Below, piece by piece: positions 6,889 to 38,656 of a stretch of DNA of 64,000 bases. Below the pieces are notes generated by a model, which was not told where the DNA came from, made no database searches, and saw nothing but the letters and a program-made list of their open reading frames with translations. Numbering within the stretch: position 1 is the stretch's first letter; each line of letters starts with the position of its first letter. Origin of the DNA: Corallococcus exiguus (GTDB lineage Bacteria > Myxococcota > Myxococcia > Myxococcales > Myxococcaceae); NCBI RefSeq assembly GCF_009909105.1, contig NZ_JAAAPK010000002.1, forward strand, positions 349,827 through 413,826. Direction: 5' to 3'. The position numbers were made by a program, and so were the translations under genes.

Positions 6889-6939
6889 CGAAGATGCTGC
6901 GAAGGCGGCAGTACGGGGGGCGTAACCCCTGGAACGCAT

Positions 6940-7008: not shown

Positions 7009-7153
7009 CGCCACCCCGATCCGCGAGGTGCCCGGGGGGATTGAGGGTCGGCCGGTTTCCCTCTGGCGCGGGGTGGACCGCGAGTCCGTAAAGGTCCACC
7101 CGCGTCCGTTCATCTTGGGTACAGCTTGGGTACGCGGGTAGGGACGGCAGGGG

Positions 7154-7762
7154 TCAGGGGGCATTGGCTGCACCGGGGCCGGTCACGTCCGTGAACTTCG
7201 TGCCGGTGATGACCGCGCGCTCCAGGGCCTCCTTGATCTCCTCGGACACGATCAAGGCCACGGTCCAGCCCCAGGTGCGGAACACCTTGGCGCCTTCCAC
7301 CTTCGCCGGGTCGATGCGCATCCCGGACACGGAGGAGTACGTACCCACCTTTTCGGGCATCCCGTCCTCCGGGGTCCAGTAACGCACCTCCTCGCACGCT
7401 GCATCGTCGATGCACTTCACCAGCCGGGTGGCGTTGAGGATGAAGTGCTGAGCGGGCTGGGAGTCGATCTCCACCGGGATGAGCTGCACGTCGTCGGGTG
7501 CCAGCTCGGTGAAGAAGGAGGCCACCCGGGCGTGGACGACGGGGATGCTGAATGCCGCGTGGGAATAGTCGAGCGGTTTGCCGGAGATCTTGATGGGGAT
7601 CCTGATGCGCTCGTCCGAGTGAGCCCGCTGCCCGATCCTGAACTGCCACGGGTCATCGAGCTTGCGCCCTTCCTGATCGAGAGGATGCCCCAGCTCCCAC
7701 CGGCCGGAGAGGTACACATCATCGCTCAACTTGAAGAACCGCGTCGGCATGAAGTCGTCCAT
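7154..7762 (-). CDS. Putative polymorphic-toxin immunity protein (second, possibly orphan; resembles DUF1629/Imm11-like proteins)
   Basis: 202-aa protein immediately downstream of the toxin and the first immunity gene in the same orientation. Family assignment is from memory and uncertain. Confidence 0.4.
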   Translation of the reverse strand: MDDFMPTRFFKLSDDVYLSGRWELGHPLDQEGRKLDDPWQFRIGQRAHSDERIRIPIKISGKPLDYSHAAFSIPVVHARVASFFTELAPDDVQLIPVEIDSQPAQHFILNATRLVKCIDDAACEEVRYWTPEDGMPEKVGTYSSVSGMRIDPAKVEGAKVFRTWGWTVALIVSEEIKEALERAVITGTKFTDVTGPGAANAP

Positions 7763-7772
7763 CCGAGGCGGG

Positions 7773-8126
7773 CTACTCTGGATCGAGCGCCCAGGTTCCT
7801 TCTTCCCAGCGCTTCAATGCCTGCCCGGCTTCAAAGGGAACGAGCCCCTTGCCCTTGGCGGCTTCCTCCAGAACCGCCTTCGCTTCGGCCGTCCGGTAGC
7901 GGAGCAGATGGGCGGCGGCCATGACACGCACATCCATGCGCTCATGCTTGAGCAGGACGAGGAGGGCATCACGTCCTGCGTTTCCATGGGCCAGGAGCGT
8001 ATCGACGGCGGCACCGTACTTCCTGGCGTGCTTGTTCCCGGTCTTGGCATCTCCCCGGAAGATGGCCTCGGTCTGTGCCGCCACGTTCAGGGCGAACTGC
8101 TCGACCAATCTCTCCAACGTCATCAC
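7773..8126 (-). CDS. DUF2019-like small helical immunity protein
   Basis: 117 aa. The MTLERLVEQFALNVAAQTEAIFRGDAKTGNKHARKY...VRVMAAAHLL...AEAKAVLEEAAKG...FEAGQALKRWEEGTW pattern matches the DUF2019 family as I recall it. Its start overlaps the toxin stop by 4 nt (ATGA). Confidence 0.5.
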   Translation of the reverse strand: MMTLERLVEQFALNVAAQTEAIFRGDAKTGNKHARKYGAAVDTLLAHGNAGRDALLVLLKHERMDVRVMAAAHLLRYRTAEAKAVLEEAAKGKGLVPFEAGQALKRWEEGTWALDPE

Positions 8127-9532: not shown

Positions 9533-9593
9533 GGCCTAGTAATACCAGATAGAGCTGACAGATGCTCCGGGCTGACGCCGTCTGTGGTGGAGC

Positions 9594-9989
9594 GTGTGCG
9601 GCCGACGGCGTGCCTTCTGGAACGTCACGCCGAGAGAGAGCGTGCGCTGTCAGCCCGGTCACCACAGCTTGAGCGTGAAAGGCCCCACCGAGCACCGGAC
9701 GGTTACCTTCGTCTCCGACGCGCGCCTGCCCTTGGACAACAACCGCTCCGAGGCAGCGCTGCGCAAAGCGGCGCTGGGCCGGAAGAACTTCCTCTTCGTC
9801 GGCCATGAGGCCGCGGGCGAAAACCTCGCTGGCCTCTACGCCCTCGTCGCCACCTGCGAAGCCAACGGCGTCAATCCCGAGGCCTACCTCGCCGACATGC
9901 TGCTGCGCGTCCAGACGCACCCGCTTGCGCGCGTCGGCGAGCCGCTGCCGCACGAATGGGAGCGGCTTCGCGCCGCCGACGCTTCCTGA
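9594..9989 (+). pseudogene. IS66-family transposase C-terminal fragment (remnant)
   Basis: DNNRSEAALRKAALGRKNFLFVGHEAAGENLAGLYALVATCEANGVNPEAYLADMLLRV matches the conserved C-terminus of IS66 TnpC. Only ~130 aa of a ~500-aa protein are present. Confidence 0.6.
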
Positions 9990-10183
9990 CGCCACCTCAC
10001 CACGGCATTTCTCCCCGCTGGGACTCGCGGCGCCCGCCGAGCACGGCCAGGGCCTGCCTTCAAGCTCGCCAACACGTCATTGGCCGGACAGTTACGATGG
10101 ATATAACATTTAGCTTGTTCTGGGGCCCCTCTCTGCGGTGGCCCGAACAGCGAGGGGACCAAGGGGCCGGTCTTGCCGAAGTG

Positions 10184-11782
10184 CTATTCACCAACAGGGG
10201 TGTCGATTGGTGGAACACCTTCCTTCTGTTGGGGGACCTGTGCAGAGGCGTTTGCCGGCTGTGCGGCAAGGTGAGTTGGAGTCAAGGAAGGGCTTGCATG
10301 AAGCATAGCTCTTAAGTCGTTTTCGATTTCAGAGAGTATTTTGAGATGAAATATGGCGAACTGGTCGGGATTGAGTCCTTGAGGAGAGGCTGCGCCCGAG
10401 AGTCTCTTGAAGACGTCCGCATGCTTCCTTCGTTTGACCGCTACTTTGTTGCCCTTTCCATGATCGACGTCGTGTCTGATTTCTGTGCGAAGCGTGTTTA
10501 CATCTATGAAGGAAGAAGGTGGCGACTCGCCGAGTCGCTCCCCAGGGCCTTCCCACAAAAGAAAGTAAAGGTTGTCGATCAGCTTTTCATATTCTGCGAC
10601 GTCCGAAATCAAAACTCCAAGGCTTCTCTGTGCCTTCAGGGTTTTGTTTGTTGGCTTGAAGAGGTCTTTGCCGGTGGCGGATTGAGATTTTGTGTTTATC
10701 TGCTCAATCAGTTCTGCGATTTGTTCTGCCTTGGCGAGGACGTCGGCCTTAGGAGTCGTTTTGGCGATGGCTGTGGCGCCAAAAGCACTGGCCAGTTCAG
10801 GGTTTTTGGTGAGGAGCTTTTTGGTGAGGATGCGCTGTCGGGCCTCTGGGCCGGATTTGATATTGGCGTTGATTGTCTTCTGGAATTCGAGGTAGTCGCG
10901 ATCGGTGGCCTTGACCCCTAGTTCTACTTGCTTGGAAAGCTCTTCTGTGAAGGCTTCGGCGAAGCTGGAGAACACCGTCTCGTGTCCAACGGCCTTTCCT
11001 GCTGAGACGAGCGTTGCCGCAAGGGTGAAGATTGATTGAACTATGGTCCGGTTGTGTAGTGCTGGGGAAGGGGCGGGAAAGGATTTGTCGAGAAAGGCTA
11101 GTGTTGATGTGATTCTTTTGGCGACCGCTGATTTTCTTGAGAATGTCGAGTTGTTTTCGAATATCAGCTTGAGGTCGTCAAAGCGAAGGCCTGTTGTGAT
11201 CCCCTTGATTTCGATTGCGCAGGCCTTGGCGGCAATGTCGAGATGTGAGTGGCGGTAGTCCTCGACTTGGCATTTTGACTTGAAAAAACTGTGCTTTGAT
11301 ACGTCGAGTGCGAAGTCGCGCAATTCGCTGTGAATGGCGTTTAGTCTCTCGCTGCTCGTGAGCGGAAGTCCGAGTTGGAGTCTTTGAAAGAACTCCTTGA
11401 GGTCTGATTCAATGGCCCCGGTGATTACGTCGTACTCGATCTCGAAGTCATCGAATTTGTCTGCTATCGCAGTTGGGAGTTCTTTGTAGAGTTTCCCTCC
11501 CATTTGAGTGGGAGAGTCCATAGGGATCTCAAGCTCATTTCCAAAGAAGCGCCAGATGGCCTGAAGGCGCTGCTGCCCGTCGACCACTTCGTACTGGTCG
11601 CTGTCGTTGGACTTCTTGACAAAGTAGAATTTTGGCAGCTTCCATCCGCGTAGGATGCTGTCGATAAGATTCTGCTGAAGCTTTTTGTCCCAGACTTTCC
11701 CGCGTTGCCAATCTGGAATCTCATAGCGACCGCGCCGTGCATAAATCTTGTCGAGAGACCTCTTCTCTGATCTCATTTCCAT
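10184..11782 (-). CDS. DUF262 (ParB/Srx-like nuclease domain, GmrSD N-terminal-like) protein; candidate anti-phage defence gene
   Basis: N-terminal IPDWQRGKVWDKK...VVDGQQRLQAI motif (the DGQQR signature of DUF262). The gene is conspicuously AT-rich relative to its flanks. No DUF1524 H..H motif is obvious in the C-terminal ~350 aa. Confidence 0.6.
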   Translation of the reverse strand: MEMRSEKRSLDKIYARRGRYEIPDWQRGKVWDKKLQQNLIDSILRGWKLPKFYFVKKSNDSDQYEVVDGQQRLQAIWRFFGNELEIPMDSPTQMGGKLYKELPTAIADKFDDFEIEYDVITGAIESDLKEFFQRLQLGLPLTSSERLNAIHSELRDFALDVSKHSFFKSKCQVEDYRHSHLDIAAKACAIEIKGITTGLRFDDLKLIFENNSTFSRKSAVAKRITSTLAFLDKSFPAPSPALHNRTIVQSIFTLAATLVSAGKAVGHETVFSSFAEAFTEELSKQVELGVKATDRDYLEFQKTINANIKSGPEARQRILTKKLLTKNPELASAFGATAIAKTTPKADVLAKAEQIAELIEQINTKSQSATGKDLFKPTNKTLKAQRSLGVLISDVAEYEKLIDNLYFLLWEGPGERLGESPPSSFIDVNTLRTEIRHDVDHGKGNKVAVKRRKHADVFKRLSGAASPQGLNPDQFAIFHLKILSEIENDLRAMLHASPSLTPTHLAAQPANASAQVPQQKEGVPPIDTPVGE

Positions 11783-11866
11783 GCTCGTGACCTCCTAAAA
11801 ACGCTGTTGTGAGTAGAGCGTCCCGCAACCCGTTCAGGGCCGCGTCAGAAAAACCCAAGGAAAACA

Positions 11867-11965
11867 TGGCGGTAGGGCACGGGAATCGAACTCGCCAGGG
11901 ACTGCTCTCGCAGCCCCTCATTGGTTTTGAAGACCAAGCCGGCCACCAGGTCCGGAGGCCCTACC
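11867..11965 (-). tRNA. selC: tRNA-Sec (anticodon UCA), ~99 nt
   Basis: Minus-strand sequence GGTAGGGC...TTGGT-CTTCAAA-ACCAA...GGCGAGTTCGATTCCCGT-GCCCTACC-G-CCA. Shows an 8-bp acceptor stem, a 7-nt anticodon loop with U33 and UCA at 34-36, a long variable arm, a TTCGATT T-loop, discriminator G, and an encoded CCA. D-arm and T-stem pairing were not fully verified by hand. Confidence 0.6.
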
Positions 11966-12007
11966 GCTTCCGATTACCGCCGCTCCGCCCCAGTCCGTCA
12001 ACCGCCG

Positions 12008-12976
12008 TCACGTCTTGCGCGCGGACACCACGGCGTACTCGTCGCAGTTGAACAGCGCGGGCCACTGGAGTTGCTCCGGTGTCATCCGCATCGCCTTGTG
12101 CACGTCCGCGCGCACCTGGTGCAGGGACGTGCTCCCCGGCTGCCTCTCCAGCTGCGTCATGCCCCGCAGCGCCACCAGCGCCGTGTTCACCGCCGGGTAC
12201 ACATCCTCCGCGATGGACTCCACCTTCGCGTCCTGGAACCCCGCCCGCCGCAGCTCCTCCCGGTATCGCTCCGTCGACCAGACGTTCTCCTCCGGGAAGG
12301 CAATCAGTCCCCGCCAGTAGCGGTAGCGCAGCCGCGCTCGGAGTCCTGCTCCAGCCTCACGGTCCGTCTTCTGCGCCATGTCCGCCATCACCAGCCGGCC
12401 TCCCGGCTTCAGCACCCGGAAGGCCTCGCGCAGGAAGTCCTGCCGCATCCGGAAGTGCATCGCGGACTCCAGCGCGAACACCACGTCGAACGCTCCCTCC
12501 GGCCCCGGCAGCGCCGTCGCGCTCCCCACCTCCAGCCGGACCACGCCCTCCAGCCCCGTCAGCTTCACGCGCTCCCGGCCCACCTTCACCTGGTTCGGCG
12601 TGATGTTCACCCCGACGATGCTCGCGGGCTTGAACTCCTCCGCCCACAGCAGGTCCTGGTCCGCGTACCCGAAGCCGCAGTCCAAGACGGCATCCCCAGG
12701 CCCCAGCTTCGCCGTCCTCGCCAACAGGCGCGCCATCTCCGCCTGGGCGGACCGGAACAGCTCACCCACGCGCTCCACGTTGGTGTCGTCCACCTTCTCC
12801 ACGTGCTTCCAGTAGCCCAGGTTGATCCAGAAGGGCTCCCGGCCCGTCGTCACCCGGATGTCGCTCGGCGCGGGCATCCCCGCCACCCAGGCTCCCGTCT
12901 CGTTCGTATAGAAGCGCTCCGGGTCCGCCAGAAACGCACTCTTCAGCCGCGTCGCGACCTGCCTCACGTTGACCAT
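12008..12976 (-). CDS. Class I SAM-dependent methyltransferase
   Basis: The VLDCGFGYADQD (motif I) and VKPGGRLVMAD motifs are present. Start chosen at MVNVRQ (the ORF table extends to 13033). Confidence 0.6.
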   Translation of the reverse strand: MVNVRQVATRLKSAFLADPERFYTNETGAWVAGMPAPSDIRVTTGREPFWINLGYWKHVEKVDDTNVERVGELFRSAQAEMARLLARTAKLGPGDAVLDCGFGYADQDLLWAEEFKPASIVGVNITPNQVKVGRERVKLTGLEGVVRLEVGSATALPGPEGAFDVVFALESAMHFRMRQDFLREAFRVLKPGGRLVMADMAQKTDREAGAGLRARLRYRYWRGLIAFPEENVWSTERYREELRRAGFQDAKVESIAEDVYPAVNTALVALRGMTQLERQPGSTSLHQVRADVHKAMRMTPEQLQWPALFNCDEYAVVSARKT

Positions 12977-25086: not shown

Positions 25087-28000
25087 ATGACTGACACGAC
25101 TGAACTGTCCAAGGCCTACGAGCCCTCCGAAGTGGAGGCGCGGTGGTACAACCACTGGCTGGAGCGCGACTACTTCCGCGCCGAAGCCCCTTCCTCCAAG
25201 CCGCCGTTCAGCATCGTGCTGCCGCCGCCCAACGTGACGGGCAGCCTGCACATCGGCCACGCGCTCACCGCGACCATCCAGGACATCCTCACGCGCTGGA
25301 AGCGGATGAGCGGCTTCAACGCGCTCTGGCTGCCGGGCACGGACCACGCGGGCATCGCCACGCAGATGGTGGTGGAGAAGGAGCTCAAGAAGACGGAGGG
25401 CAAGAGCCGCCACGACCTGGGCCGCGAGGCGTTCCTCGAGCGCGTCTGGACGTGGAAGGGCAAGTTCGGCGCGCGCATCGGTGAGCAGCACCGCTACCTG
25501 GGCGCGTCCCTGGACTGGAGCCGCGAGCGGTTCACCATGGACGAGCAGTCCTCGGCCGCGGTGCGCGAGGTGTTCGTCCGGCTGTACGAAGAGGGCCTGA
25601 TGTACCGGGCCCAGAAGCTGATCAACTGGTGCCCGTCCTGCCGCACGGCCCTCTCCGACCTGGAAGTGGAGCACGAGGAGAAGAACGGCTCGCTCTGGCA
25701 TATCCGCTACCCGGTGAAGGGCACGGAGCGCTTCCTCACCGTGGCGACGACGCGCCCGGAGACGCTGCTGGGCGACACGGCCGTCGCCGTGCACCCGGAG
25801 GATCCGCGCTACCAGGACCTCATCGGCAAGAGCGTGGCGCTGCCGCTCACCGACCGTGAGATTCCGGTCATCGCGGACGGCGAGCTGGTGAACATGGAGT
25901 TCGGCACCGGCGTGGTGAAGGTCACGCCCGCGCACGACTTCAACGACTACCAGACGGGCCTGCGCCACAAGCTGCCGATGCTGTCCATCCTGGACGAAGC
26001 GGCGCGGATGACGAAGGACACCGGCAAGTACGCGGGCCTGGAGAGCCGGGAGGCGCGCAAGCAGGTGCTGGCGGACCTGACGGAGCTGGGCCTGCTGGAG
26101 AAGGAGGAGCCGCACAAGCTGAACGTGGGCACCTGCCAGCGCTGCACCACGGTGGTGGAGCCGCGCCTGTCGCCGCAGTGGTTCATCAAGATCGAACCGC
26201 TGGCGAAGCCGGCCATCCAGGCCGTGGAGGAGGGCCGCACGAAGTTCGTCCCCGAGTCGTGGACGAACACGTACTTCCACTGGATGAACAACATCCACGA
26301 CTGGTGCGTGAGCCGCCAGCTGTGGTGGGGCCACCAGATTCCCGCGTGGTACTGCGCGGCGTGCACCCCGGCGGAAGAGCGCTCGAAGGACACGGCGGAC
26401 GTCATCGTGTCTCGCACGGCGCCGGAGTCCTGCCCGAAGTGCGGCGGCAAGGAGCTGACGCAGGATCCGGACGTGCTGGACACCTGGTTCTCGTCCGCGC
26501 TGTGGCCGTTCTCCACGCTGGGCTGGCCGAAGCAGACGGCGGACCTCCAGACCTTCTACCCGACGTCCGTGATGGAGACGGGCCACGACATCATCTTCTT
26601 CTGGGTCGCCCGGATGATGATGATGGGCCTGCACTTCATGAACGATGTGCCCTTCCGCACCGTGTACCTGCACGCGATGGTGCGCGACGAGAAGGGCGAG
26701 AAGATGTCCAAGACGAAGGGGAACGTCATCGATCCCTTGGACGTCATCCTCGGCGCGAAGGCGGAGTCGCTGCAGCCGTCCTTGCGCAACCGCTTCCCGC
26801 AGGGCATGCCCGCGCACGGCGCGGACGCGCTGCGCTTCACGCTGGCGTCGCTCACGCAGCAGGGCCGTGACATCAAGCTGTCGATGGACCGCCTGGGTGG
26901 CTACAAGGCGTTCTGCAACAAGCTGTGGAACGCCAGCCGCTTCGCCCTGATGAACATGGGCGACTTCAGCCTGGACAAGACGCCGCTGGAGGGCCGCAAG
27001 CTGACGCTGGCGGACCGGTGGATCCTCTCCCGCCTGCAGAAGGCCACCGAGGAGACGCGCGCGTCGCTGGAGGCGTTCGGCTTCGCGGAGGCCGCGTCCA
27101 CGCTGTACCAGTTCCTGTGGGCGGAGTTCTGCGACTGGTACATCGAGCTGGCGAAGGGCTCGTTGTACGGCGACGACGCGGAGGCCAAGGACACCACGCG
27201 CGCGGTGCTGGTGACGTGCCTGGACCGCATCCTGCGGCTGATGCACCCGTTCATGCCGTTCATCACCGAGGAGATCTGGCAGAAGCTGCCGATGTCCCGG
27301 CCCACGGAGAGCATCTGCATCGCGGCGTACCCGGCGCCGGAGACGGCGTGGGTGGACGCGGCCGCGGAAGGCGAGATGGCGCCGGTCATCGCGGCCATCG
27401 AGGGCCTGCGCACGCTGCGCGGCGAGAGCAACCTGCCGCCGTCCGCCAAGGTGAAGGCGGTGGTGCAGAGCCCGGACGCGACGACGCGCGAGCTGTTGGA
27501 GCGTTGGCGCGCGTACCTGATGCCGCTCGCGGGCCTGTCCGAGGTGGTGGTGGGCCCCCCGGGCGCCAAGCCTCCGCAGGCGGCGGCGTTCGTGAGCGGC
27601 AACCTGGAAATCTACGTGCCCCTGGCGGGCCTGGTGGACCTGGACGCGGAGCGCGACCGCCTGAAGAAGGAGATCGTCCGCTCCGAGCAGGAACTCACCG
27701 GTTTGCAGCGCAAGCTGGACAACCCGAACTTCGTGGCCCGTGCTCCGCCGGACGTGGTGGAGAAGGACAAGGCCCGGGTGGCGGAGCTCCAGGAGCGCAC
27801 GGTCAAGCTGCAGGATCACCTCCAGCGCATCGCCCCGGAGCCCCCCATGTCCGAGACGCCGTCGCCGTTGCCGGGCAGCACCGAGTCCGAAGCCCCTGAA
27901 GCGTCCGAGTCCCCCGCGCCCGAGAGCGCCCATGTGAAGGTGGCCACCGAGCCGCAGGCACCGAAGGACGATGCGGTGAACCTGGGCCAGGAGCTGAAGG

Positions 28001-28584
28001 GCGAGATTGAAGCCGAAGAGGCTTCGCAGGCGCCCCAGGCCGCGGATCCGGTGGTGGAGGAGGCCCTCAACAAGCTGCGCGAGGGCACCAAGGAAGGACT
28101 GTCCCCGGCGGACCACCACGACCTGGGCGTCGCGTACATGAGCATGGGCCTCGTGGACGACGCGATGCGCGAGTTCGACCGGGCCAAGGAGGGCGGCGAC
28201 GCCCGCGAGGCGCCGGAGGGTTCGGCGAAGCCGGTGAAGAAGGCCCCTGCGAAGAAGGCCTCCTCGAAGAAGGCGGCGGTGAAGAAGGCCCCTGCGAAGA
28301 AGGCCGCGGCGGTGAAGAAGGCCCCTGCGAAGAAGGCCTCCGCGAAGAAGGCGGCGAGCAAGAAGTCCGCCGCGAAGAAGGCCCCTGCGAAGAAGGCTTC
28401 CGCGAAGAAGGCAGCGGGCAAGAAGACGGCCGCGAAGAAGGCGGCGGTGAAGAAGGCTCCTGCGAAGAAGGCTTCGGCGAAGAAGGCTTCGGCGAAGAAG
28501 GCGGCGGGGAAGAAGACCGCCGCGAAGAAGGCCGCGGCGAAGAAGACCACTCGGGGCAAGCCGGCTCGCAAGGCGCGCCGGTAG
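25087..28584 (+). CDS. valS: Valine--tRNA ligase with ~280-aa C-terminal extension (acidic linker + histone H1-like AKKA repeats)
   Basis: HIGH ([13 protein letters not shown]) and KMSKS ([13 protein letters not shown]) motifs, editing domain, and a C-terminal coiled coil (up to ...LQDHLQRIA at ~aa 885). An E/P/S-rich segment, one TPR-like helix pair, and a [17 protein letters not shown] repeat tail follow. Confidence 0.9.
28234..28584 (+). repeat. Tandem DNA repeats encoding the Lys/Ala (AKKA) tail of valS
   Basis: Repeated gcgaagaaggcc(c/t)ctgcgaagaaggc units seen directly. Confidence 0.55.
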
Positions 28585-28587
28585 GAG

Positions 28588-29472
28588 GTGGAAGTGCAGC
28601 AGGATTATCTCGATCGGCTCATCGCGCTGTCCCTCGACGAGGACCTGGGTGCTGCGGGGGACGTCACCTCGCTGGCGGTGGTCCCCGCCGAAGCGGAGGG
28701 CAGCGGTGAGCTGGTCGCGAAGGAGCAGATGATCGTCGCCGGCCTGGACGCCTTCGTCCGCGTCTTCCACATGGTGGACGCGGAGGTGGAGGTGGAGGTC
28801 CTCAAGCGCGACGGCGAGGAGATCAAGCCGAAGGTGGTCGCCGCGCGCGTCCACGGCAAGCTGCGTTCGCTGCTGGCCGCGGAGCGCACGGCGCTCAACC
28901 TGGTGCAGCGCGCCGCCGGCATCGCGACGCTGGCCCAGCAGGCGATGACCTCCGTGCGAGGCTCGAAGCTGCGGGTGCTGGACACGCGCAAGACGCCGCC
29001 GGGCATGCGGGGCCTCGCGAAGCACGCGGTGCGCATGGGCGGCGCGTCCAACCACCGCTTCGGCCTCTTCGACGGCATCCTCATCAAGGACAACCACATC
29101 GCGGCGGTAGGTGGCGACATCACCGAAGCGGTGCGCCGCGCGAAGCTGAACGGTCCCCGGCTGGTGAAGATTGAAGTGGAGGTCACCAACTTCAAGCAGC
29201 TGGAGGAGGCCATCGCCGCGGGCGCGGACGTCATCATGTTGGACAACATGGACGACGCGCAGATCCGCGAAGCGGTGAAGCTGACGGCGAGCCGCGTGCC
29301 CATCGAAGTGTCGGGCGGCGTCACGTTGGATCGGCTGCCCCGGCTGGCGAAGCTGGGCGTGGACTTCGTGTCGATGGGCGCGCTGACGCACTCGGCGCGG
29401 GCCATGGACCTGTCGCTGGAGATCGCGACGACGAAGAAGTCCACGCGCAAGCCCCGCTCCGCGCAGGGCTGA
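28588..29472 (+). CDS. nadC: Nicotinate-nucleotide pyrophosphorylase (quinolinate phosphoribosyltransferase)
   Basis: Typical NadC length (294 aa) and conserved blocks (LDTRKTPPGMRGLAKHAVRMGGASNHRFGL, ILIKDNHI, IMLDNM). Confidence 0.85.
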   Translation: MEVQQDYLDRLIALSLDEDLGAAGDVTSLAVVPAEAEGSGELVAKEQMIVAGLDAFVRVFHMVDAEVEVEVLKRDGEEIKPKVVAARVHGKLRSLLAAERTALNLVQRAAGIATLAQQAMTSVRGSKLRVLDTRKTPPGMRGLAKHAVRMGGASNHRFGLFDGILIKDNHIAAVGGDITEAVRRAKLNGPRLVKIEVEVTNFKQLEEAIAAGADVIMLDNMDDAQIREAVKLTASRVPIEVSGGVTLDRLPRLAKLGVDFVSMGALTHSARAMDLSLEIATTKKSTRKPRSAQG

Positions 29473-29503
29473 AGCGGTCAGCGGTCTTCACGAATCCGTA
29501 GAA

Positions 29504-29543
29504 GAGCGCCTCCGAGTCCTGGGACTCGGAGGCGCTTGTGTTT
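29504..29543. terminator. Bidirectional rho-independent terminator
   Basis: Perfect hairpin gagcgcctccgagtcc-tg-ggactcggaggcgct followed by tgtgttt, between nadC (+) and the convergent small gene (-). Confidence 0.5.
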
Positions 29544-29769
29544 ACGGCTGGGTGCAGCGCCAGACCCCGCAGGAACCGCCGCTCGTGCCGCACTCCATCT
29601 GGGTCGAGCACGGCTTGCAGGTGCGCGAACAGATCATCTGGACCGCAGACGTCTGGTTATCAGTCGTCTCCGCCGTGGAGCCGGGAACCATGGCCAGGGC
29701 CGTGCCCGCCATGATGCCGATGATCAGCGCGAATCCAGGAATCGTCTGCTTCAGTCGCGATGCCTTCAT
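29542..29769 (-). CDS. Small secreted Cys-rich peptide (75 aa precursor; ~45-aa mature region with 6 Cys)
   Basis: Strong GGAGG RBS 5 nt upstream of the ATG, GC3-biased codons, and a Sec signal peptide (MKASRLKQTIPGFALIIGIMAGTALAMVPG). Mature region C-x3-C-x2-C-x5-C-x6-C-x4-C. Confidence 0.55.
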   Translation of the reverse strand: MKASRLKQTIPGFALIIGIMAGTALAMVPGSTAETTDNQTSAVQMICSRTCKPCSTQMECGTSGGSCGVWRCTQP

Positions 29770-29863
29770 GCTTCCTCCGGGGTGGGGGCCACCGGGTCAA
29801 GAGCATCCTGGCCCGCTGACAGGAAGGCATTCGAACAGACGCCGCGACGCAATCCAAGGTCAC

Positions 29864-30613
29864 TCAGTCGCGGATCCAGTGGAAGGTCACGCGGTCGCCA
29901 CCGGTGAGATGGTCACCCAGACCGCCCAATGAATACATCTCCGTGTGGATTCCGAAGAGCTTGGCCTTGCTGAAGATGAAGCGCGTGCTCGAGGCCTGCA
30001 CGATGGTCGTCCACTGCGAATTGGTGTCGCAGTTGTTCGTGGAGGCATTGGGCCAGTTGCACCAGGAGCTGCCGTTGTGGTTCCAGACGCGCCAGTCATC
30101 ACCGCCGCCCACGAGGGCGACCTGCTTCCACCACGTCACGTTGGAGCCGGAGTTGAGCCGGAACTCGATGACCTCCGGCCCCGCCACGTTGTGCTCGACC
30201 TCCGCGAGGATGACGTCGCCATCGGGCAGCTCGGCGTAGGCCACCTTCTCGCGGATCTCCCGGTCGCACGTGATGCAGGAGTTCTGGATGTCGCTGGGCG
30301 ACGTGCAGCCGCTCACGCTGTACTCCCCGGAGTACAACGGATGGGTCCCGCAGAAGTAGCACGAGTGGGTATAGGGCCCGGTCACGCACTCGGCCACGTA
30401 CTGCACCGTCGTCTTCCCGAAGTCGTTCCAGGAGAGGGCCGTCGTGGCCATGGCGGTGACGGTGCGACCTTCGTCCTGCGACGGAGCGACGGGCGCCTGC
30501 TCCTGGGGCGCGGCTTCGGGAACGGGCATCTCCTCCGTGGCGGGGCCGCAGCCCACGCCACCCAGAAGTCCAAGGACGAGGAACGACGACGCGAGCCGTG
30601 CGCGCTGAAGCAT
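29864..30613 (-). CDS. Cys-rich lipoprotein (249 aa)
   Basis: Start re-assigned by codon counting to MLQRARLASSFLVLGLLGGVGCG (lipobox) with GGAG upstream. The 5' 357 codons of the tabulated ORF (to 31684) are antisense to the MVP gene and are rejected. Multiple Cys pairs (CYFC, CITC) are present. Confidence 0.55.
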   Translation of the reverse strand: MLQRARLASSFLVLGLLGGVGCGPATEEMPVPEAAPQEQAPVAPSQDEGRTVTAMATTALSWNDFGKTTVQYVAECVTGPYTHSCYFCGTHPLYSGEYSVSGCTSPSDIQNSCITCDREIREKVAYAELPDGDVILAEVEHNVAGPEVIEFRLNSGSNVTWWKQVALVGGGDDWRVWNHNGSSWCNWPNASTNNCDTNSQWTTIVQASSTRFIFSKAKLFGIHTEMYSLGGLGDHLTGGDRVTFHWIRD

Positions 30614-30862
30614 GAGGGTTTCTCCAGATGAGGCAGAGCGGGCGCCGTCGTGGCGCTCCGCATGTCTGTCTGCCTGCGAATACGGAGAACCCCCGGCGCG
30701 CTGGTTGTTCGAAATGCGCTCCAGTCTGGAACACCGCGCACCGGAGTGGAGCGAGTGTCCGCGCCAGTCCGGTGCGGTGCGGAGCCGTTCCAGGGCGAGC
30801 GGTGACGGCATGGGGCTCGCAATGACTCGCGGCTGAACCCCACTCCCGCGAGCAGGTGTGCC

Positions 30863-33139
30863 ATGCCGTCCGCCCCCAGCACCGAAGCCATCCAGCGCAT
30901 CTCCCTGAAGAACCGCGAGTACGCATACATCGAGGACGCCAACCGCGGCGTCGTGCTGATGGAGGTGGGCCCGCGCGTGCTGACGCTCGAAGCGCACCTG
31001 ACGCTCGTGGCGAAGGAGCGGATGGTGGAGCTGGGCGCCGGCAGCTGGTGCGTGGTGCGCAACCCCGTGGTGCGTGTGGACGGCCAGGTGGCGCTGGACG
31101 ACTTCGGCCAGGCCCGCGTCGCGGTGGGCGACCGCGAGGTCCGCGTGGGCCCGAAGGTGTTCCCGCTGTACCCCGGCGAGGAGCTGGAGGGCGACATCGT
31201 CCCGGAATACGTCCTGGGCGTGTCGGAGGCGCTGCGTCTGCGCGCGCTCACCGCCTTCACGGACACCCACGTCCCGGACGCTCCCCGCCGCCGTGAAGCG
31301 GGTGACGAGTGGCTGGTGCGCGGCCCCGGCCGCTACGTGCCCGGCGAGTCCGTCACCGTCGTGTCGCTGGAGAAGGCCCGCGTCCTCAAGGAGACCGAGT
31401 ACTGCGTCATCCTCAATCCCGTGGACCGCGCCACCGGCCGCGTCCAGGAGGGCCGCCGCAAGGTCGTCTCCGGTCCGGATGTCTTCTTCCTCGAACCCGG
31501 CGAGGCGCTGGAAGGGGACGTGCGCCGCAAGCATGTCCTGTCGGAGCTGCAGGGCCTGAAGCTCCAGGCCCTGGACGACCTCTCCGAGAACGAGGGTGGC
31601 GAACCGCGCGCACGCAAGGCCGGTGACACGTGGATCGTCCGCGGCCCTCGCACCTACGTGCCCAGCGAGAAGGTCCTCATCCACCGGGAGATTGCCGCGC
31701 TGTCATTGGGGCAGGGGGAAGGCCTGTACGTGCGCGACCTGCGCTCGGGCAAGGTGTCGCTCGTCCAAGGGCCTTGCCAGTTCATGCCGGAGGCACACCA
31801 GGAACTGCACGAGAAGCGCCTGTCCCCGGACGCGGAGGCCCTGCTGGGCCTCACTCCGCCGCTGCCGCTCGCGGAGGCGAAGGACGCCCGCGCGCCACGG
31901 CCCACAAGCGCGACGGAGAAGGGGGACCGCACTCGCGCCATCGTGCTGCGCATCGAGGACAACACGGCGGTCCTCATCAACGACTTCGAGTCCAATCACG
32001 CGCGCGTGGAGTTCGGCCCCGCGAAGGTGATGTTGCGTCCGTACGAGGACGTCACCGTCCTGGATTTGTCCGGCAGCACGCCCAAGCGCCCGCGTCAGCT
32101 CAAGGTGCTGATGCTGCGGCTGGGGCCGGACTTCGCCACGGACCTCTTCGAGGTGGCCACTCGCGACCACGCGCGGCTGCGCATCAAGCTTTCGTACAAA
32201 TGGCAGTTCGACGTGCAGGGGGACCCGGAGAAGGACAAGGCCATCTTCCGGGTGAACGACTTCATCGGGTACGTGTGTGAGAACCTCGCGTCGCGCATCC
32301 GCCAGGTCGCCGCGGAGAACGAGTTCGAGACCTTCCACAAGAACGCCAGCGTGCTCATCCGCCGCACCATCTTCGGCATGGATGACGCGGGCCGCGCTCG
32401 CAAGGACCGCCTCTTCTCCGAGAACCAGCTGCGCATCATCGACATCGACATCAAGGACATCGCCCCCGTCGATGAGAAGACGGCCCTGAAGCTGCGCGAG
32501 GCCATCGACACCAACATCCAGATCCAGCTGGACGCCTCACGCCAGGAGGCCCAGGCCGCCGCGGAGCTCAAGCGCATCCGCAGCGAGGAGGAGAAGCAGC
32601 TCGCGGACATCGCCAGCCACCGCAAGTCGGAGGCGGAGCGCCAATCCCTCATCGAATTGCAGAACCGCAACCACCAGCTGGAGACGCTCAGCCGCGCCAA
32701 GGTGGAGGCGGAGGCCCAGCTGGAGCGCGCCCGCGTGGAGAGCGAAGAGGCCCTGGCCCGCGCCGAGTCCGACGCCCGCGCCTCGCGCATCCGCTCCGAA
32801 GCGGAGATCGAGCGCGAACGGCTCACCACCCAGGTGGCCCTGGATCGCCAGCAGCGCCTCAATGACCTGGAGGTGGAGCGCCAGTCGCGCCTCGCGGAAG
32901 TGGAAGCCGGCCAATTCCGTCAGCGCGTGGAGTCCCTGGGGGGAGGGGAGAACTTCGTGAAGGCCGTGGCCGCGCAGGCCCAGGCCGCCGTCGTCGGAGG
33001 CCTGGACAAGGTCGTCTTCCTCCCCAGCGGCTCCAACCTCAACCTCTTCGACGCCATGCAGGGACTCCTGGGGCCCGGCGGACAACCCCGCCTGTCCGCC
33101 CACAACGCCCCGAAGCCGCCCGGCGACACTTCGGCCTGA
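30863..33139 (+). CDS. Major vault protein (MVP) homologue: vault repeats + shoulder (SPFH-like) domain + cap-helix coiled coil
   Basis: Block-by-block similarity to eukaryotic MVP as recalled from memory: FPLYPGEELEGDIVP vs PLYPGEVLEKDITP; AGDEWLVRGPGRYVP vs AGDEWLFEGPGTYIP; EYCVILNPVD...FFLEPGEALEGDV...VLSELQGLKLQALD vs HNYCVILDPVG...FFLQPGEQLEQGI...VLSEQQGLLLRALQ. Also RVEFGPAKVMLRPYEDVTVLDLSGSTPKRP...LGPDFATDL...DHARLRIKLSYKWQFDV vs [30 protein letters not shown]...LGPDFFTDV...DHARLQLQLAYNWHFEV. A long Ala/Glu/Arg-rich coiled coil is followed by NLNLFDAMQGLLGPGGQP. It is about 135 aa shorter than human MVP, with fewer N-terminal repeats. Confidence 0.8.
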   Translation: MPSAPSTEAIQRISLKNREYAYIEDANRGVVLMEVGPRVLTLEAHLTLVAKERMVELGAGSWCVVRNPVVRVDGQVALDDFGQARVAVGDREVRVGPKVFPLYPGEELEGDIVPEYVLGVSEALRLRALTAFTDTHVPDAPRRREAGDEWLVRGPGRYVPGESVTVVSLEKARVLKETEYCVILNPVDRATGRVQEGRRKVVSGPDVFFLEPGEALEGDVRRKHVLSELQGLKLQALDDLSENEGGEPRARKAGDTWIVRGPRTYVPSEKVLIHREIAALSLGQGEGLYVRDLRSGKVSLVQGPCQFMPEAHQELHEKRLSPDAEALLGLTPPLPLAEAKDARAPRPTSATEKGDRTRAIVLRIEDNTAVLINDFESNHARVEFGPAKVMLRPYEDVTVLDLSGSTPKRPRQLKVLMLRLGPDFATDLFEVATRDHARLRIKLSYKWQFDVQGDPEKDKAIFRVNDFIGYVCENLASRIRQVAAENEFETFHKNASVLIRRTIFGMDDAGRARKDRLFSENQLRIIDIDIKDIAPVDEKTALKLREAIDTNIQIQLDASRQEAQAAAELKRIRSEEEKQLADIASHRKSEAERQSLIELQNRNHQLETLSRAKVEAEAQLERARVESEEALARAESDARASRIRSEAEIERERLTTQVALDRQQRLNDLEVERQSRLAEVEAGQFRQRVESLGGGENFVKAVAAQAQAAVVGGLDKVVFLPSGSNLNLFDAMQGLLGPGGQPRLSAHNAPKPPGDTSA

Positions 33140-33224: not shown

Positions 33225-34250
33225 GTGACGACGATGAGCAACCCCGAAGGGGCGGTCCGGAAGCGCGGTGCACGGTGGTTCGGCATGGGGGCCCTGGCGG
33301 CCCTCGCGCTGGCCGTGGTGGCGCCGGGATGCAGCAGCGACGAGTGCGTGGATGCGTTCGACTGCCGCGATGAGGGCGCGGCCCCCGCGGGCAAGGCATG
33401 GACCTGCAACGCGGACAAGAAGTGCGAGCAGCGCACCCTGACGCCGACCGAAGAGCCTGAGACGGACGCGGGCACCACCACTGACGCCGGGACGACCCCC
33501 GACGCGGGCACCACCACCGACGCGGGCACGGGCGGCGAGACGGACGCGGGCACGGAGACCGACGCGGGCACGCCTCCCGCGGATGGCGGCGCGGAGCTGT
33601 GCCGCAACGCCGTGGCCTGCACGGAGCAGAGCATCGACAAGCTCCGGCTCCGCACGGTCGGCTCCGACGGCGGCGTGATTGAAGAGGGCACGACGGCGGG
33701 CGAGCACCTCACGTACCTGGATGGCCGCGGGGGTGGCACGGCGGTGCCGGACTCGTACACCTACGCGCGCTTCACGGCGACGGGCCTGGAGAAGGTCTAC
33801 ATCGATGATCAGTCCTCGCTGGATTCGACCGCGTGGGACGTCGCGGTGCGCCGGTACGTCGTCCGCTTCAACAGCGGCGTGTCCGGCCCGTCGTGCGTGA
33901 CCGTGGCGCAGACGGCGGACGGCACGACGTTCGAGTCGGTGACCTCCGTGCCCACGGATGCGCAGTTCGTTGCGGAGAACTACTACACGCCCGACACCTG
34001 CACGTTCACCGGGGACTCGTTTGGCCTTCAGAGCCCGGCGACCCAGACCCTCTCGTACTGGGACTACGCTTCCTGCCTGCAGATGACGAACAAGGTCTAC
34101 CTGGTCCAGCTGGCGGACGGCCGTCACGTGAAGCTGCAGGTCAAGGACTTCTATGAGCCCGCGATCCAGGAGGAGTGCAACACGACGGGCAAGGTGAGCT
34201 CGACGGCCAGCTCAGGGTCGATCCGCCTGCGGTGGTCCTTCCTGCCGTGA
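33225..34250 (+). CDS. Lipoprotein with low-complexity TDAGT linker and C-terminal ~220-aa domain of unknown function
   Basis: Signal peptide + lipobox (LALAVVAPGCSS), then an (E/T)TDAGT repeat linker, then a globular domain with 6 Cys. Stop overlaps the start of the next gene. Confidence 0.5.
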   Translation: MTTMSNPEGAVRKRGARWFGMGALAALALAVVAPGCSSDECVDAFDCRDEGAAPAGKAWTCNADKKCEQRTLTPTEEPETDAGTTTDAGTTPDAGTTTDAGTGGETDAGTETDAGTPPADGGAELCRNAVACTEQSIDKLRLRTVGSDGGVIEEGTTAGEHLTYLDGRGGGTAVPDSYTYARFTATGLEKVYIDDQSSLDSTAWDVAVRRYVVRFNSGVSGPSCVTVAQTADGTTFESVTSVPTDAQFVAENYYTPDTCTFTGDSFGLQSPATQTLSYWDYASCLQMTNKVYLVQLADGRHVKLQVKDFYEPAIQEECNTTGKVSSTASSGSIRLRWSFLP

Positions 34251-36937: not shown

Positions 36938-38656
36938 GTGACTGGGAATGCGAAACTGATCGCATTGCCTTTCGATAATCCGGGCAATCCAAGCACGTCC
37001 GCGGCGCCTTTGGTCGCGGCCAGACATCGAGGGGTCTTCTCCGTGACCGTCTCCAACATCCGCGTCAATTCGGGCGACACGCTTTCCGGCCTCGCGAAGC
37101 GCTACAACACGACCGTTGACGCGCTGGCCAAGGCGAACAACATCAAGGATCCGAACAAGATCCTGGCCGGCCAGACGCTGAAGGTGCAGGACGGCTTCGA
37201 CACGAAGGGCACCAACAAGTCGAGCGCGGGGACGAAGACGTCGGGCGACAGCTTCACGCAGTCCACGGACGGCGCGAAGGCGACCACGCCCGCCGCGAAC
37301 ACGAACTCCAGCAGCGCGACCAACGGGGAGTTGGGTGGGCTGAGCCGCAAGTACGAGGCTCGCGGCCCCGGCACCGTGTCCACGGGCAAGGGTGACAAGG
37401 GCGGCGTGTCCTACGGCTCCTACCAGTTCGCCTCCGCGAACGGGTCCGCGCAGTCGTTCGTCAACTCGCTGAAGAAGACGAACCCGGAGTTCCACAAGGC
37501 GCTGTCGGGCAGCAAGCCGGGCACTGCGGAGTTCTCCGCCGCGTGGAAGCAGCTGGCCGCGAAGGACCCGAAGGGCTTCGACAAGGCGCAGCACGACTAC
37601 ATCAAGACCACGCACTACGACGCGGGCGCCGCCAACATCAAGAAGGCGACGGGCATCGACCTGGACAAGCGCTCCGCTGCGCTGCGGGACGTGGCCTGGT
37701 CCACCTCCGTGCAGCACGGCCCGGGCAAGGCGGACGACATCTTCAAGAAGGCGCTCAACGGGCGCGACCCCGCGAAGGTGAGCGACGAGCAGCTCATCAA
37801 GGACATCTACGCCGAGCGCGGCCGCACCAACGCCAGCGGCACCCTGGTGCACTTCTCCGGCAGCTCCAAGGACGTGCAGAAGGGCGTGGCCAACCGATTC
37901 AAGTCGGAGGCGAAGGACGCCCTCGCGATGCTGAAGCAGGAGAAGTCGGGCACCACGACCAAGCCGGCCAACACCAACACGGGCGTGGTTCCCCCGTCCG
38001 TGAACAACGGTTCGAAGCCGGGCACCACGGAAGGCAAGCCCACGACGCAGGGCACGAACACCTCCAAGCCCACCACGGAGGCGGCCCCCGCGAACACGGA
38101 GCAGGTGGCCCCGTCCAAGGACAAGCCGGCGGTGCACGTGAAGGTGCCGTACTACAGCCAGTTCGAGAACGGCCACGGCTACACCGCGAGCGACACGGCG
38201 TGCTTCAAGGCCGCGACGGCGATGGCGCGTGACTCCGGCGCGACCGTGCTGGGCCCGGACCGCCGCATTCAGGTGGGCAAGAGCGAGAACGGCGTCGGCG
38301 CGCTCAACGTGGACTCGAAGAAGGCCGCCGAGGGCCGCAGCTACATCGACAAGCAGCTGGAGGCCGGCAAGCCGGTGGTCGTGGGCGTGAGCCACAAGGA
38401 CGCGAGCTACAACGCGGACGGCCTCACGGACCACTTCGTGACCATCACGGGCCGCGGCGTCGACGACAAGGGCCGCACCTACTACACGTTCCACGACCCG
38501 GGCACGAAGAACGCCAGCACGGGCAAGGACACGAACCCGAACAACCGCTTCTACGTGGATGACAAGACCGGGAACATGTACCGCCCCGGCAAGGCCGCGA
38601 ACGGCTACGTGACCGAGCGCCACTACGACGTGGCCATGGTGCGCATCAACAAGTAG
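36938..38656 (+). CDS. LysM-domain cell-wall hydrolase with lysozyme-like central domain and C-terminal papain-like (Cys-His) peptidase domain
   Basis: LysM ([46 protein letters not shown]). The central region ([21 protein letters not shown]...[11 protein letters not shown]) resembles phage/effector-type muramidase domains. C-terminal Cys (DTACFKAA) and His ([12 protein letters not shown]) residues with YYTFHDPG are typical of CHAP/C39-like amidases. No N-terminal signal peptide. Confidence 0.55.

What the first reader, a model, noticed from the sequence alone, without database searches (positions are those of the whole stretch)
29542..30613. Divergent partner of the MVP gene: Cys-rich lipoprotein plus a small secreted 6-Cys peptide with a strong RBS
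Across a ~250-bp divergent promoter region from MVP lies a two-gene unit. It encodes a 249-aa lipoprotein rich in paired Cys and a 75-aa precursor with a GGAGG RBS, a Sec signal and a 6-Cys C-x3-C-x2-C-x5-C-x6-C-x4-C mature domain, resembling a disulfide-knotted peptide. Small secreted Cys-rich peptides are rarely annotated in high-GC genomes. This one could be a signal or antimicrobial peptide.
Basis: seen in the sequence. Interest (0 to 1): 0.5.

Follow-up and report, generated by a model that had tools for sequence, protein, structure and literature searches.

The report
Orphan secreted six-cysteine mini-protein gene
This is a real, self-contained small gene of the soil predator Corallococcus that makes an exported peptide with six invariant cysteines and no known relatives; its neighbours (a lipoprotein gene and a vault-protein gene) look like accidents of position, and its function is unknown.

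Summary
Window 29542-29769(-) encodes a 75-aa protein with a Sec-type N-terminus, a conserved GGAGG ribosome-binding site, and C-x3-C-x2-C-x5-C-x6-C-x4-C. Window 29864-30613(-) encodes a 249-aa lipoprotein with 8 further invariant Cys. It lies 249 bp divergent from a major vault protein (MVP) homologue. The organism is Corallococcus exiguus.

All six Cys are invariant in about 22 homologues (36-92% identity), all from Corallococcus or close Myxococcaceae. dN/dS is 0.24 in the Cys domain. Neither protein matches Pfam, NCBIfam, PADLOC or PDB.

The "two-gene unit" is not supported as obligate:
- Four species have MVP and the peptide gene without the lipoprotein.
- One species keeps only a lipoprotein pseudogene remnant.
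- Myxococcus has the lipoprotein alone.

The peptide gene carries its own conserved upstream block (TTGGAT-N16-TTCGAAT), ribosome-binding site and terminator hairpin into every context, including a toxin/immunity island.

It is not a bacterial CSαβ defensin, does not fit knottin spacing, is not a Dickkopf domain, and no maturase, immunity or transporter gene is among the Pfam-annotated neighbours in any context.

Best reading: an autonomous gene for a Sec-exported, disulfide-stabilised mini-protein, a new lineage-restricted family that probably binds a specific target outside the cytoplasm. Modest interest.

The parts
29542..29769 (-). Peptide gene (75 aa precursor, stop codon included)
   Evidence: ORF. 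It is 100% identical to C. exiguus hypothetical protein P0001. GC3 is 0.85. dN/dS is 0.41 overall.
29692..29769 (-). Residues 1-26: Sec-type signal (or signal-anchor). The n-region has K2, R5 and K7. The h-region is F13-G22. A24-L25-A26 precedes M27.
   Evidence: The Kyte-Doolittle maximum is 2.23 at residues 13-27. A24 and L25 are invariant and position 26 is A or S in all aligned homologues. Cleavage is inferred from the -3/-1 rule. SignalP was not available.
29635..29691 (-). Residues 27-45: variable Thr/Glu/Gln-rich linker
   Evidence: It is the most variable segment, has indels, and has dN/dS 0.61. AF2 pLDDT is below 50 for residues 22-41.
29545..29634 (-). Residues 46-75: six-Cys domain I-C-S-x-[ST]-C-K-P-C-x5-C-G-x3-G-S-C-G-V-W-R-C
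   Evidence: The six Cys are invariant in 19-22 homologues. dN/dS is 0.24. AF2 pLDDT block means are 77 (residues 41-50), 90, 89 and 72 (residues 71-75).
29774..29778 (-). Shine-Dalgarno GGAGG
   Evidence: An exact GGAGG lies within 10 nt of the start in 11 of the 14 loci shown, counting the window. L007 has AGAGG, and paralogues L013 and L014 are degenerate.
29829..29857 (-). Conserved promoter-like block TTGGAT-N16-TTCGAAT. It starts 7 nt after the lipoprotein stop codon.
   Evidence: It is kept in Corallococcus orthologues with the lipoprotein (window, L017, L021), without it (L005, L010; L008 degenerate, TTGGCG/CTCGAAT) and after relocation (L007). Promoter function is inferred. The sigma-70 scan found nothing by its own criteria.
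29505..29536 (.). 14-bp GC-rich hairpin: a terminator shared by the peptide gene and convergent nadC
   Evidence: MFE is -35.9 kcal/mol and z = -7.2 against shuffles. The same hairpin follows the peptide gene in 8 loci with different downstream genes, mostly with a U-tract. One stem pair shows AU/GC/UA compensation.
29864..30613 (-). Lipoprotein gene (249 aa). Order of parts: signal plus lipobox (C22), Pro/Glu/Ala linker, Cys-rich subdomain, C-terminal beta-sandwich domain.
30614..30862 (.). 249-bp divergent intergenic region between the lipoprotein and MVP genes
   Evidence: No sigma-70 consensus match and no Rfam match.
30863..33139 (+). MVP (major vault protein) homologue, included as context only
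   Evidence: Pfam Vault, Vault_2/3/4 and MVP_shoulder. It is 97-98% identical across Corallococcus species.

Best explanation
The 75-aa ORF is an autonomous, essentially monocistronic gene cassette. The cassette consists of its own upstream control block, a strong SD, the ORF and an intrinsic terminator.

Inferred steps:
- The product is exported by Sec.
- It is most likely cleaved after Ala26 (ALA|MVPG).
- It is then oxidised in the periplasm into a compact three-disulfide knob of about 30 residues, carried on a flexible, variable 15-20-residue tail.

Proposed action. The knob works outside the cytoplasm by specific binding to a target, as an inhibitor, ligand or effector, rather than by membrane disruption. 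The scaffold and two surface patches (S-C-K-P-C and G-S-C-G-V-W-R-C) are fixed, while loop positions 55-59 and 62-64 vary.

Neighbours. The upstream lipoprotein is a separate, dispensable gene of an uncharacterised beta-sandwich family. The MVP gene is a syntenic neighbour, not a demonstrated partner.

Shown versus inferred:
- Shown: gene reality, conservation of the Cys framework, autonomy of the cassette, lack of any conserved partner gene, and absence from known families.
- Inferred: export, cleavage site, disulfide formation, and a binding function.
For: Real gene under purifying selection:
- Homologues are 36-92% identical with all six Cys invariant.
- dN/dS is 0.24 in the Cys domain against 0.61 in the linker.
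- GC3 is 0.85.

Export signal:
- There are three basic residues in the n-region and a hydrophobic core.
- The A-L-[AS] site is conserved.

Autonomy:
- The upstream block, the SD and the terminator hairpin travel with the ORF into at least 6 different neighbourhoods.
- The hairpin has z = -7.2 and shows a compensatory pair.
- The lipoprotein is deleted in 4 loci and is a remnant in 1, while the peptide cassette stays intact.

Folded knob: AF2 pLDDT block means are 77-90 for residues 41-70 (72 for 71-75), but 44-55 for residues 1-40.

Against other functions:
- The Cys domain is only weakly basic (pI 8.35; about +2 by residue count in the window peptide) and the 42-49-aa mature forms are acidic (pI 5.9-6.2).
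- None of the Pfam-annotated neighbouring genes in any context is an immunity, ABC-transporter or radical-SAM gene; some neighbours have no Pfam hit.

Precedent: Sec-exported three-disulfide peptides (bacterial defensins) occur in the same genus (PMC11561630).
Against: - There is no transcript, peptide or phenotype data. No paper mentions these accessions.
- The N-terminal 30 residues are as conserved at protein level as the Cys domain (pN 0.156 against 0.165). They carry a small-xxx-small ladder (A14, G18, G22, A26). That is unusual for a disposable signal peptide and fits a retained membrane anchor.
- No terminator lies between the lipoprotein and peptide genes (z = +0.5). Read-through co-transcription in C. 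exiguus is therefore possible.
Confidence: 0.55

Rival explanations
1. The hydrophobic N-terminus is not cleaved. The product is then a bitopic (N-in, C-out) inner-membrane mini-protein. Its glycine-zipper-like helix self-associates or docks to a membrane partner, and the Cys knob is displayed in the periplasm.
For: - The N-terminal region is as conserved as the Cys domain, even in paralogues of 36-53% identity.
- G12, A14, L15, G18, G22, A24 and L25 are invariant, which gives small-xxx-small spacing.
- Basic residues lie only on the N-terminal side of the helix.
Against: - The length (26 aa), the helix-breaking G22 at -5 and the conserved A-x-A/S at -3/-1 are the textbook SPase I architecture.
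- The hydrophobic core of about 14 residues is short for a stable transmembrane helix.
- Signal peptides of small secreted toxin families can also be highly conserved (general knowledge).
Confidence: 0.22
2. The six Cys bind a metal (Zn, Cu or an Fe-S cluster) instead of forming disulfides. The CX3CX2C triad resembles cluster-binding motifs. The peptide would act as a periplasmic metal buffer, chaperone or redox module.
For: The Cys are invariant, with a C-x3-C-x2-C triad and no other invariant polar residues except S48 and K52. A HmuY-like (haem-binding family) lipoprotein lies beyond MVP. That is weak circumstantial context.
Against: - An exported Cys-rich domain in a Dsb-containing periplasm is expected to be oxidised.
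- There is no Tat motif, which would be needed to export a pre-assembled cofactor.
- No His or Met ligands are conserved.
- No metal-homeostasis genes are linked in any context.
Confidence: 0.08
3. One reading: the lipoprotein and the peptide form a functional two-gene operon (for example a carrier or receptor plus a ligand), divergently co-regulated with MVP.
For: - Same strand, a 94-bp gap and no terminator between the two genes in the window.
- The MVP-lipoprotein-peptide order recurs in L017 and L021.
- The peptide is adjacent to MVP in 8 of 12 orthologue loci although the far flank turns over.
Against: - The lipoprotein is lost in L005, L008, L010 and L019, and is a pseudogene in L009, with the peptide intact.
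- The lipoprotein homologue in Myxococcus sits in an unrelated locus with no peptide.
- The peptide sits in four contexts without either neighbour.
- The peptide's own upstream block is conserved.
- MVP has no signal peptide, whereas the peptide is exported.
- MVP is 97-98% identical across species while the peptide is 66-80% identical.
Confidence: 0.1
4. The ORF is a precursor of a ribosomally synthesised, post-translationally modified peptide (sactipeptide, ranthipeptide or SCIFF-like), or a bacteriocin with dedicated immunity and export.
For: Cys-rich C-terminal core after an N-terminal leader-like region. The CX3CX2C spacing is reminiscent of thioether-forming cores.
Against: - No radical-SAM, peptidase-transporter or immunity gene is among the Pfam-annotated neighbours in any of at least 8 neighbourhoods.
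- The 'leader' is a hydrophobic Sec-type signal, not a RiPP recognition sequence.
- There is no room for a hidden partner ORF: 94 bp upstream and 69 bp downstream.
Confidence: 0.03

Closest known systems
Bacterial cis-defensins (CSαβ) of myxobacteria: class I 'corallosins/exiguusin' and class II 'xanthusin-1' (PMC11561630)
   Same: - Same genus.
- Small stand-alone genes.
- Sec signal followed by a 30-45 aa mature peptide with six Cys.
- Presence of a GxC element (G65-S-C67).
- Unknown or non-antimicrobial function (xanthusin-1 was inactive in antimicrobial tests).
   Different: - The Cys framework differs. Defensins have C...CxxxC...GxC...CxC. This peptide has C-x3-C-x2-C-x5-C-x6-C-x4-C and lacks CxC.
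- hhalign probability is below 3%.
- The motifs GVWRC and CKPC are absent from that paper's sequence tables.
- AF2 shows only a 4-residue helix.
Inhibitor cystine knot (knottin) mini-proteins
   Same: About 30 residues, six Cys, presumably three disulfides, and secreted.
   Different: - Loop lengths 3, 2, 5, 6, 4 violate the recalled ICK consensus CX3-7CX3-6CX0-5CX1-4CX4-13C at loops 2 and 4.
- There is no fold hit.
- Connectivity is unknown.
Dickkopf N-terminal cysteine-rich domain (a UniRef name attached to one orthologue, P0197)
   Same: A local motif P-C-x5-C-G-x2-E shared with DKK1 CRD1.
   Different: - Only 12 residues align, with probability 8%.
- No Pfam hit at E <= 10 for 10 family members.
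- By recollection the Dickkopf_N domain has 10 Cys in about 50 aa.
Uncharacterised secreted/lipoprotein beta-sandwich family (for the 249-aa lipoprotein)
   Same: The C-terminal ~120-aa domain has the motifs LPDGD-I, EF-L, WWK, FSKAK and GGDRVTF-W--D. It is shared with 202 representative proteins.
   Different: - There is no Pfam, NCBIfam or PDB entry.
- The lipobox and the Cys-rich N-subdomain are specific to the myxobacterial members.

Membership tests
Sec/SPase I secreted protein (peptide) | Positively charged n-region, 10-15 residue hydrophobic h-region, and small residues at -3/-1 | tested here: met
   K2, R5 and K7 are present. The KD maximum is 2.23. A24-L25-A26|M27 has A24 and L25 invariant and position 26 A or S in all homologues. 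This is a heuristic only; SignalP was not available.
Bacterial lipoprotein (249-aa protein) | Lipobox ending in an invariant Cys after a signal h-region | tested here: met
   L16-L-G-G-V-G-C22 fits the recalled PROSITE PS51257-type pattern. C22 is invariant in 11 homologues. LipoP was not available.
CSαβ cis-defensin (bacterial classes I-V) | CxxxC in the helix paired with CxC in the strand | tested here: not met
   CxxxC is present (C47-C51), but there is no CxC anywhere.
CSαβ cis-defensin (bacterial classes I-V) | Detectable profile similarity to class I or class II members | tested here: not met
   hhalign probabilities are 0.9% and 2.2%.
Knottin / inhibitor cystine knot | Inter-Cys loop lengths within the ICK consensus | tested here: not met
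   The loops are 3, 2, 5, 6, 4. Loop 2 is too short and loop 4 too long against the consensus recalled from the literature.
Knottin / inhibitor cystine knot | I-IV, II-V, III-VI connectivity with a threaded disulfide | not testable with these tools
There were no fold hits.
Dickkopf_N (PF04706) | Match to the Pfam model / ten-Cys domain | tested here: not met
   No hit at E <= 10 for 10 members, including the protein that carries the name. hhalign aligns 12 residues at probability 8%.
RiPP precursor (sacti-/ranthipeptide) | Conserved adjacent maturase (radical SAM) and/or peptidase-transporter | tested here: not met
   None is seen among the Pfam-annotated genes in any of at least 8 neighbourhoods.
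Lipoprotein-peptide operon | Conserved co-occurrence and adjacency of the two genes | tested here: not met
   The genes are adjacent in 3 loci and there is a remnant in 1. The lipoprotein is absent in 4 MVP-linked loci and in 4 other contexts. It occurs alone in Myxococcus.
Intrinsic terminator (hairpin 29505-29536) | Stable GC-rich stem-loop followed by a U-tract, conserved with compensatory changes | tested here: met
   z = -7.2. The hairpin is conserved in 8 loci with one compensatory pair. U-tracts are clear in L008, L010, L017, L019 and L021 but weak in the window itself.

The most novel reading that the evidence does not exclude
The peptide gene is functionally coupled to the bacterial vault-protein (MVP) homologue through their shared divergent control region. 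The pair stays together in 8 of 12 orthologue loci, despite deletion of the intervening lipoprotein and complete turnover of the other flank. On this reading the peptide also founds a structurally new class of bacterial three-disulfide mini-proteins. That would give a first experimental handle on what bacterial MVP does.
Probability: 0.08. Interest if true: 0.7.

Novelty: new variant of a known kind. Interest (0 to 1): 0.35.

Why it matters
Genetically encoded, Sec-exported, disulfide-rich mini-proteins are still rare in bacteria, and myxobacteria are emerging as a reservoir of them (bacterial defensins). This family has a different Cys framework, no detectable sequence or fold relatives, and a compact self-contained expression cassette. 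That makes it an easy target for synthesis, NMR and activity screening against proteases, prey microbes and fungi. If it proves to be an inhibitor or effector used in predation, it would add a new scaffold. As it stands it is a well-validated orphan gene, not a mechanism.

Tried and rejected
No hits for either protein:
- Pfam and NCBIfam.
- PADLOC.
- Rfam on 29300-31000.
- PDB sequence profiles for the peptide and for the lipoprotein family. Both gave chance-level hits only.

Structure searches:
- Peptide model against Foldseek PDB: best E = 8.7.

Family extension:
- A profile search of 5.8 billion proteins added only 7 sequences.
- The metagenome scan added one locus.

Regulatory features:
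- The sigma-70 and terminator consensus scans found nothing. The terminator hairpin was found only by folding.
- A sigma-54 reading of TGGCAC near the RBS was rejected, because there is no TTGC at -12 and it overlaps the SD.
- A small 5'-UTR hairpin (GGGCC-GGATGCTC-GGCCC) shows one compensatory change in L010. However, the consensus energy is only -2.4 kcal/mol and the hairpin is deleted in L021. It is not claimed.

Other checks:
- The Dickkopf label was checked and rejected.
- Literature searches for the accessions and for myxobacterial disulfide-rich peptides found nothing specific.
- The bioRxiv paper on bacterial MVP (10.1101/872010) says nothing on neighbouring genes.
Full report
**Observation.**
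The window is Corallococcus exiguus: the peptide is 100% identical and the lipoprotein 98% identical to C. exiguus proteins.
- The peptide ORF is 29542-29769(-). It is 75 aa and ends in C47-x3-C51-x2-C54-x5-C60-x6-C67-x4-C72. GGAGG lies 4 nt before the ATG.
- The lipoprotein ORF is 29864-30613(-). It is 249 aa, with the lipobox LLGGVGC22 and eight further Cys, including two CxxC pairs. All are invariant in 11 homologues.
- A 249-bp gap separates it from a divergent gene at 30863-33139(+). That gene has Vault, Vault_2/3/4 and MVP_shoulder domains.
- On the other side, the peptide gene converges on nadC at 28588-29472.

Both ORFs have the GC3 of real genes, 0.85 and 0.90, against 0.53-0.75 for overlapping frames. 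Of 326 small six-frame ORFs in the window, only this one combines a signal-like N-terminus with at least 6 Cys in 30 residues.

**Conservation.**
A search of 5.8 billion proteins found 12 homologues, and a profile search raised that to 19. A genome scan and a metagenome scan added a few more loci. All named sources are Corallococcus, one Myxococcus strain, a Myxococcaceae MAG and one record labelled Comamonas. That last record has 69% GC and is 97% identical to a contig from another source.

All six Cys, S48, K52, G61, G65 and G68 are invariant across 19 sequences, down to about 51% identity. Two more distant paralogues keep the six Cys and the spacing (L013 at 45% and L014 at 36% tblastn identity).

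Pairwise dN/dS among ten orthologues:

| Region | dN/dS |
|---|---|
| Cys domain | 0.24 |
| N-terminal 30 residues | 0.50 |
| Linker | 0.61 |

The gene evolves much faster than its neighbour: the peptide is 66-80% identical across species where MVP is 97-98% identical.

**Gene neighbourhood.**
Orthologue loci fall into four classes.
- MVP, lipoprotein, peptide: window, L017 and L021.
- MVP, lipoprotein remnant, peptide: L009. Only the last ~50 codons of the lipoprotein survive, with an internal deletion.
- MVP and peptide with no lipoprotein: L005, L008, L010 and L019.
- Peptide with neither neighbour:
  - L006/L011;
  - L007/L015, inside an AHH/Imm11/Imm49/PAAR-like toxin-immunity island;
  - L012/L016;
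  - L020.

Paralogues (L004, L013, L014) sit elsewhere again. The lipoprotein's Myxococcus homologue lies in an unrelated locus with no peptide and no MVP. Downstream of the peptide, almost every species has different genes: nadC/valS, RdgC, DUF6310/DUF5953 or HXXSHH.

So the peptide sits at the edge of a conserved block, HmuY-like lipoprotein, MVP, (lipoprotein), peptide, next to a variable region. The lipoprotein was ancestrally present at this site in Corallococcus and has been lost repeatedly without harm to the peptide gene.

**An autonomous cassette.**
Three flanking features stay with the ORF wherever it goes.
- An upstream block cTTGGAT-N16-TTCGAATGCC lies about 60-90 nt before the ATG. 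It is present directly after the lipoprotein stop codon in the window, L017 and L021. It is also present in loci lacking the lipoprotein (L005, L010, degenerate in L008) and in the relocated copy L007.
- The GGAGG site is conserved.
- A 12-15 bp GC-rich hairpin (GCCTCCGAGTCC...GGACTCGGAGGC) follows the stop codon, usually with a U-tract. In the window it is 29505-29536, MFE -35.9 kcal/mol, z = -7.2 against shuffles. It doubles as the terminator of convergent nadC. Across eight loci the consensus structure scores -27.9 kcal/mol, with AU/GC/UA compensation at one stem pair.

The 94-bp lipoprotein-peptide spacer has no unusual structure (z = +0.5). Read-through from the lipoprotein promoter is therefore possible in C. 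exiguus, but it is not required. The promoter function of the block is inferred; the simple sigma-70 scan did not call it.

**What the peptide looks like.**
- Residues 1-26 have the n/h/c organisation of a Sec signal: K2, R5, K7; hydrophobic core F13-G22; G22 at -5; A24-L25-A26 before M27. The A-L-[AS] site is conserved in all homologues.
- Residues 27-45 are variable, indel-prone and rich in Thr, Glu and Gln.
- AF2 with 19 sequences gives pLDDT block means of 44-55 for residues 1-40. For the Cys region it gives 77-90 over residues 41-70 and 72 for residues 71-75. Secondary structure is short strands at 45-47, 53-54 and 67-68 and one helical turn at 57-60.
- Predicted mature forms are 5.1 kDa (27-75) or 4.5 kDa (34-75). 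The 30-residue knob has pI 8.35 and the longer forms pI 5.9-6.2.

Conservation is mosaic. The scaffold and the stretches S-C-K-P-C and G-S-C-G-V-W-R-C are fixed in orthologues, whereas positions 55-59, 62-64 and the C-terminal tail vary.

**Comparison with known families.**
- Databases: neither protein matches Pfam, NCBIfam or PADLOC. Neither matches a PDB sequence profile.
- Bacterial defensins: Corallococcus is known to encode Sec-exported bacterial cis-defensins (PMC11561630). Those have the CSαβ signature CxxxC...CxC, for example SQVTCYAFECNASCVAKGFRLGKC...CTCF. They do not include this family. Profile comparison gives below 3% probability.
- Dickkopf: one orthologue carries the UniRef name 'Dickkopf N-terminal cysteine-rich domain-containing protein'. 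Pfam does not reproduce that at E <= 10. hhalign aligns only P-C-x5-C-G-x2-E, 12 residues at 8% probability.
- Knottin: the loop lengths 3, 2, 5, 6, 4 do not fit the knottin consensus as I recall it.
- Partner genes: no radical-SAM, transporter or immunity gene is among the Pfam-annotated neighbours in any context. There is no room for a hidden partner ORF within the cassette.

**The lipoprotein.**

**Interpretation.**
The best-supported reading (about 0.55) is an autonomous gene for a Sec-exported, SPase-I-processed, disulfide-stabilised mini-protein that acts by specific binding outside the cytoplasm. Four points favour a target-specific binder (inhibitor, ligand or effector) over a cationic membrane-active peptide or a self-toxic bacteriocin:
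- charge that is at most weakly positive (Cys domain pI 8.35; mature forms acidic);
- fixed surface patches;
- variable loops;
- lack of an immunity gene.

Rivals:
- Uncleaved signal-anchor with a small-xxx-small helix (0.22). This is supported by the unusually strong conservation of the N-terminus.
- Metal-binding Cys cluster (0.08).
- Functional operon or MVP partnership (0.10).
- RiPP or bacteriocin (0.03).

Export, cleavage, oxidation and binding are all inferences. No expression or proteomic evidence was found.

**Verdict.**
This is a validated, lineage-restricted orphan family. It is a new variant within the known kind 'small exported disulfide-rich bacterial peptides'. Its links to the lipoprotein and to MVP are positional. 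Interest is modest (0.35). It would rise if the fold or target proves new, or if the MVP adjacency recurs outside Corallococcus.

Noticed in passing
window 27700-28584 (3' part of valS, 25087-28584 +): The valyl-tRNA synthetase ORF (1165 aa) has a C-terminal extension of about 290 aa. It starts with an acidic Pro/Glu/Ser/Ala-rich stretch and ends in about 130 residues of AKKA/PAKKA repeats, like a histone H1 tail.
   Followed up: no
window 33225-34250 (+): This is a 341-aa lipoprotein (lipobox VAPGC) with a Cys-rich start, a TDAGT-type Thr/Asp/Ala/Gly repeat and a HmuY-like domain (Pfam E = 3.6e-14). It stays next to MVP in L010, and a 341-aa gene sits next to MVP in L019.
   Followed up: partly
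L009 5579-5929: C. interemptor keeps a pseudogene remnant of the lipoprotein between MVP and the peptide...NVTWWKQVTLVGGGDN|FSKARLFG...GGDRVTFRWIHD*. It has an internal deletion and has lost its 5' part. The old MVP-lipoprotein intergenic sequence is still recognisable.
   Followed up: yes
L015 (= L007) 1-12228, C. praedator: Here the peptide cassette, with its upstream block and terminator, sits inside a polymorphic-toxin region: AHH nuclease, Imm11, Imm49, DUF2169 and a PAAR-like toxin. It is not next to MVP.
   Followed up: partly
L011 (BNCN01000002.1, labelled Comamonas sp. KCTC 72670): This record carries a peptide orthologue, has 69% GC, and is 97% identical over 10 kb to the contig in L006. 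The organism label looks wrong for a Comamonas.
   Followed up: partly
window 29790-29815 (-), and the same place in L005, L009, L010: A small hairpin, GGGCC-GGATGCTC-GGCCC, lies in the presumed 5' UTR. L010 shows one compensatory change (GGGACC/GGTCCC). The consensus energy is weak at -2.4 kcal/mol and the hairpin is deleted in L021.
   Followed up: yes
L004, L013, L014 (paralogues); P0027, P0029: Corallococcus genomes carry one or two additional diverged paralogues, 36-53% identical, e.g. ...ICSVSCKLCVTTSDCGSGEGVCGAYLCL. They have the same signal and the same Cys spacing, and lie in unrelated loci.
   Followed up: partly
window 36938-38656 (+): A LysM plus VgrG3-like C-terminal domain protein (a likely secreted peptidoglycan hydrolase) lies a few kb beyond MVP. 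The same pairing appears next to MVP in L005.
   Followed up: no
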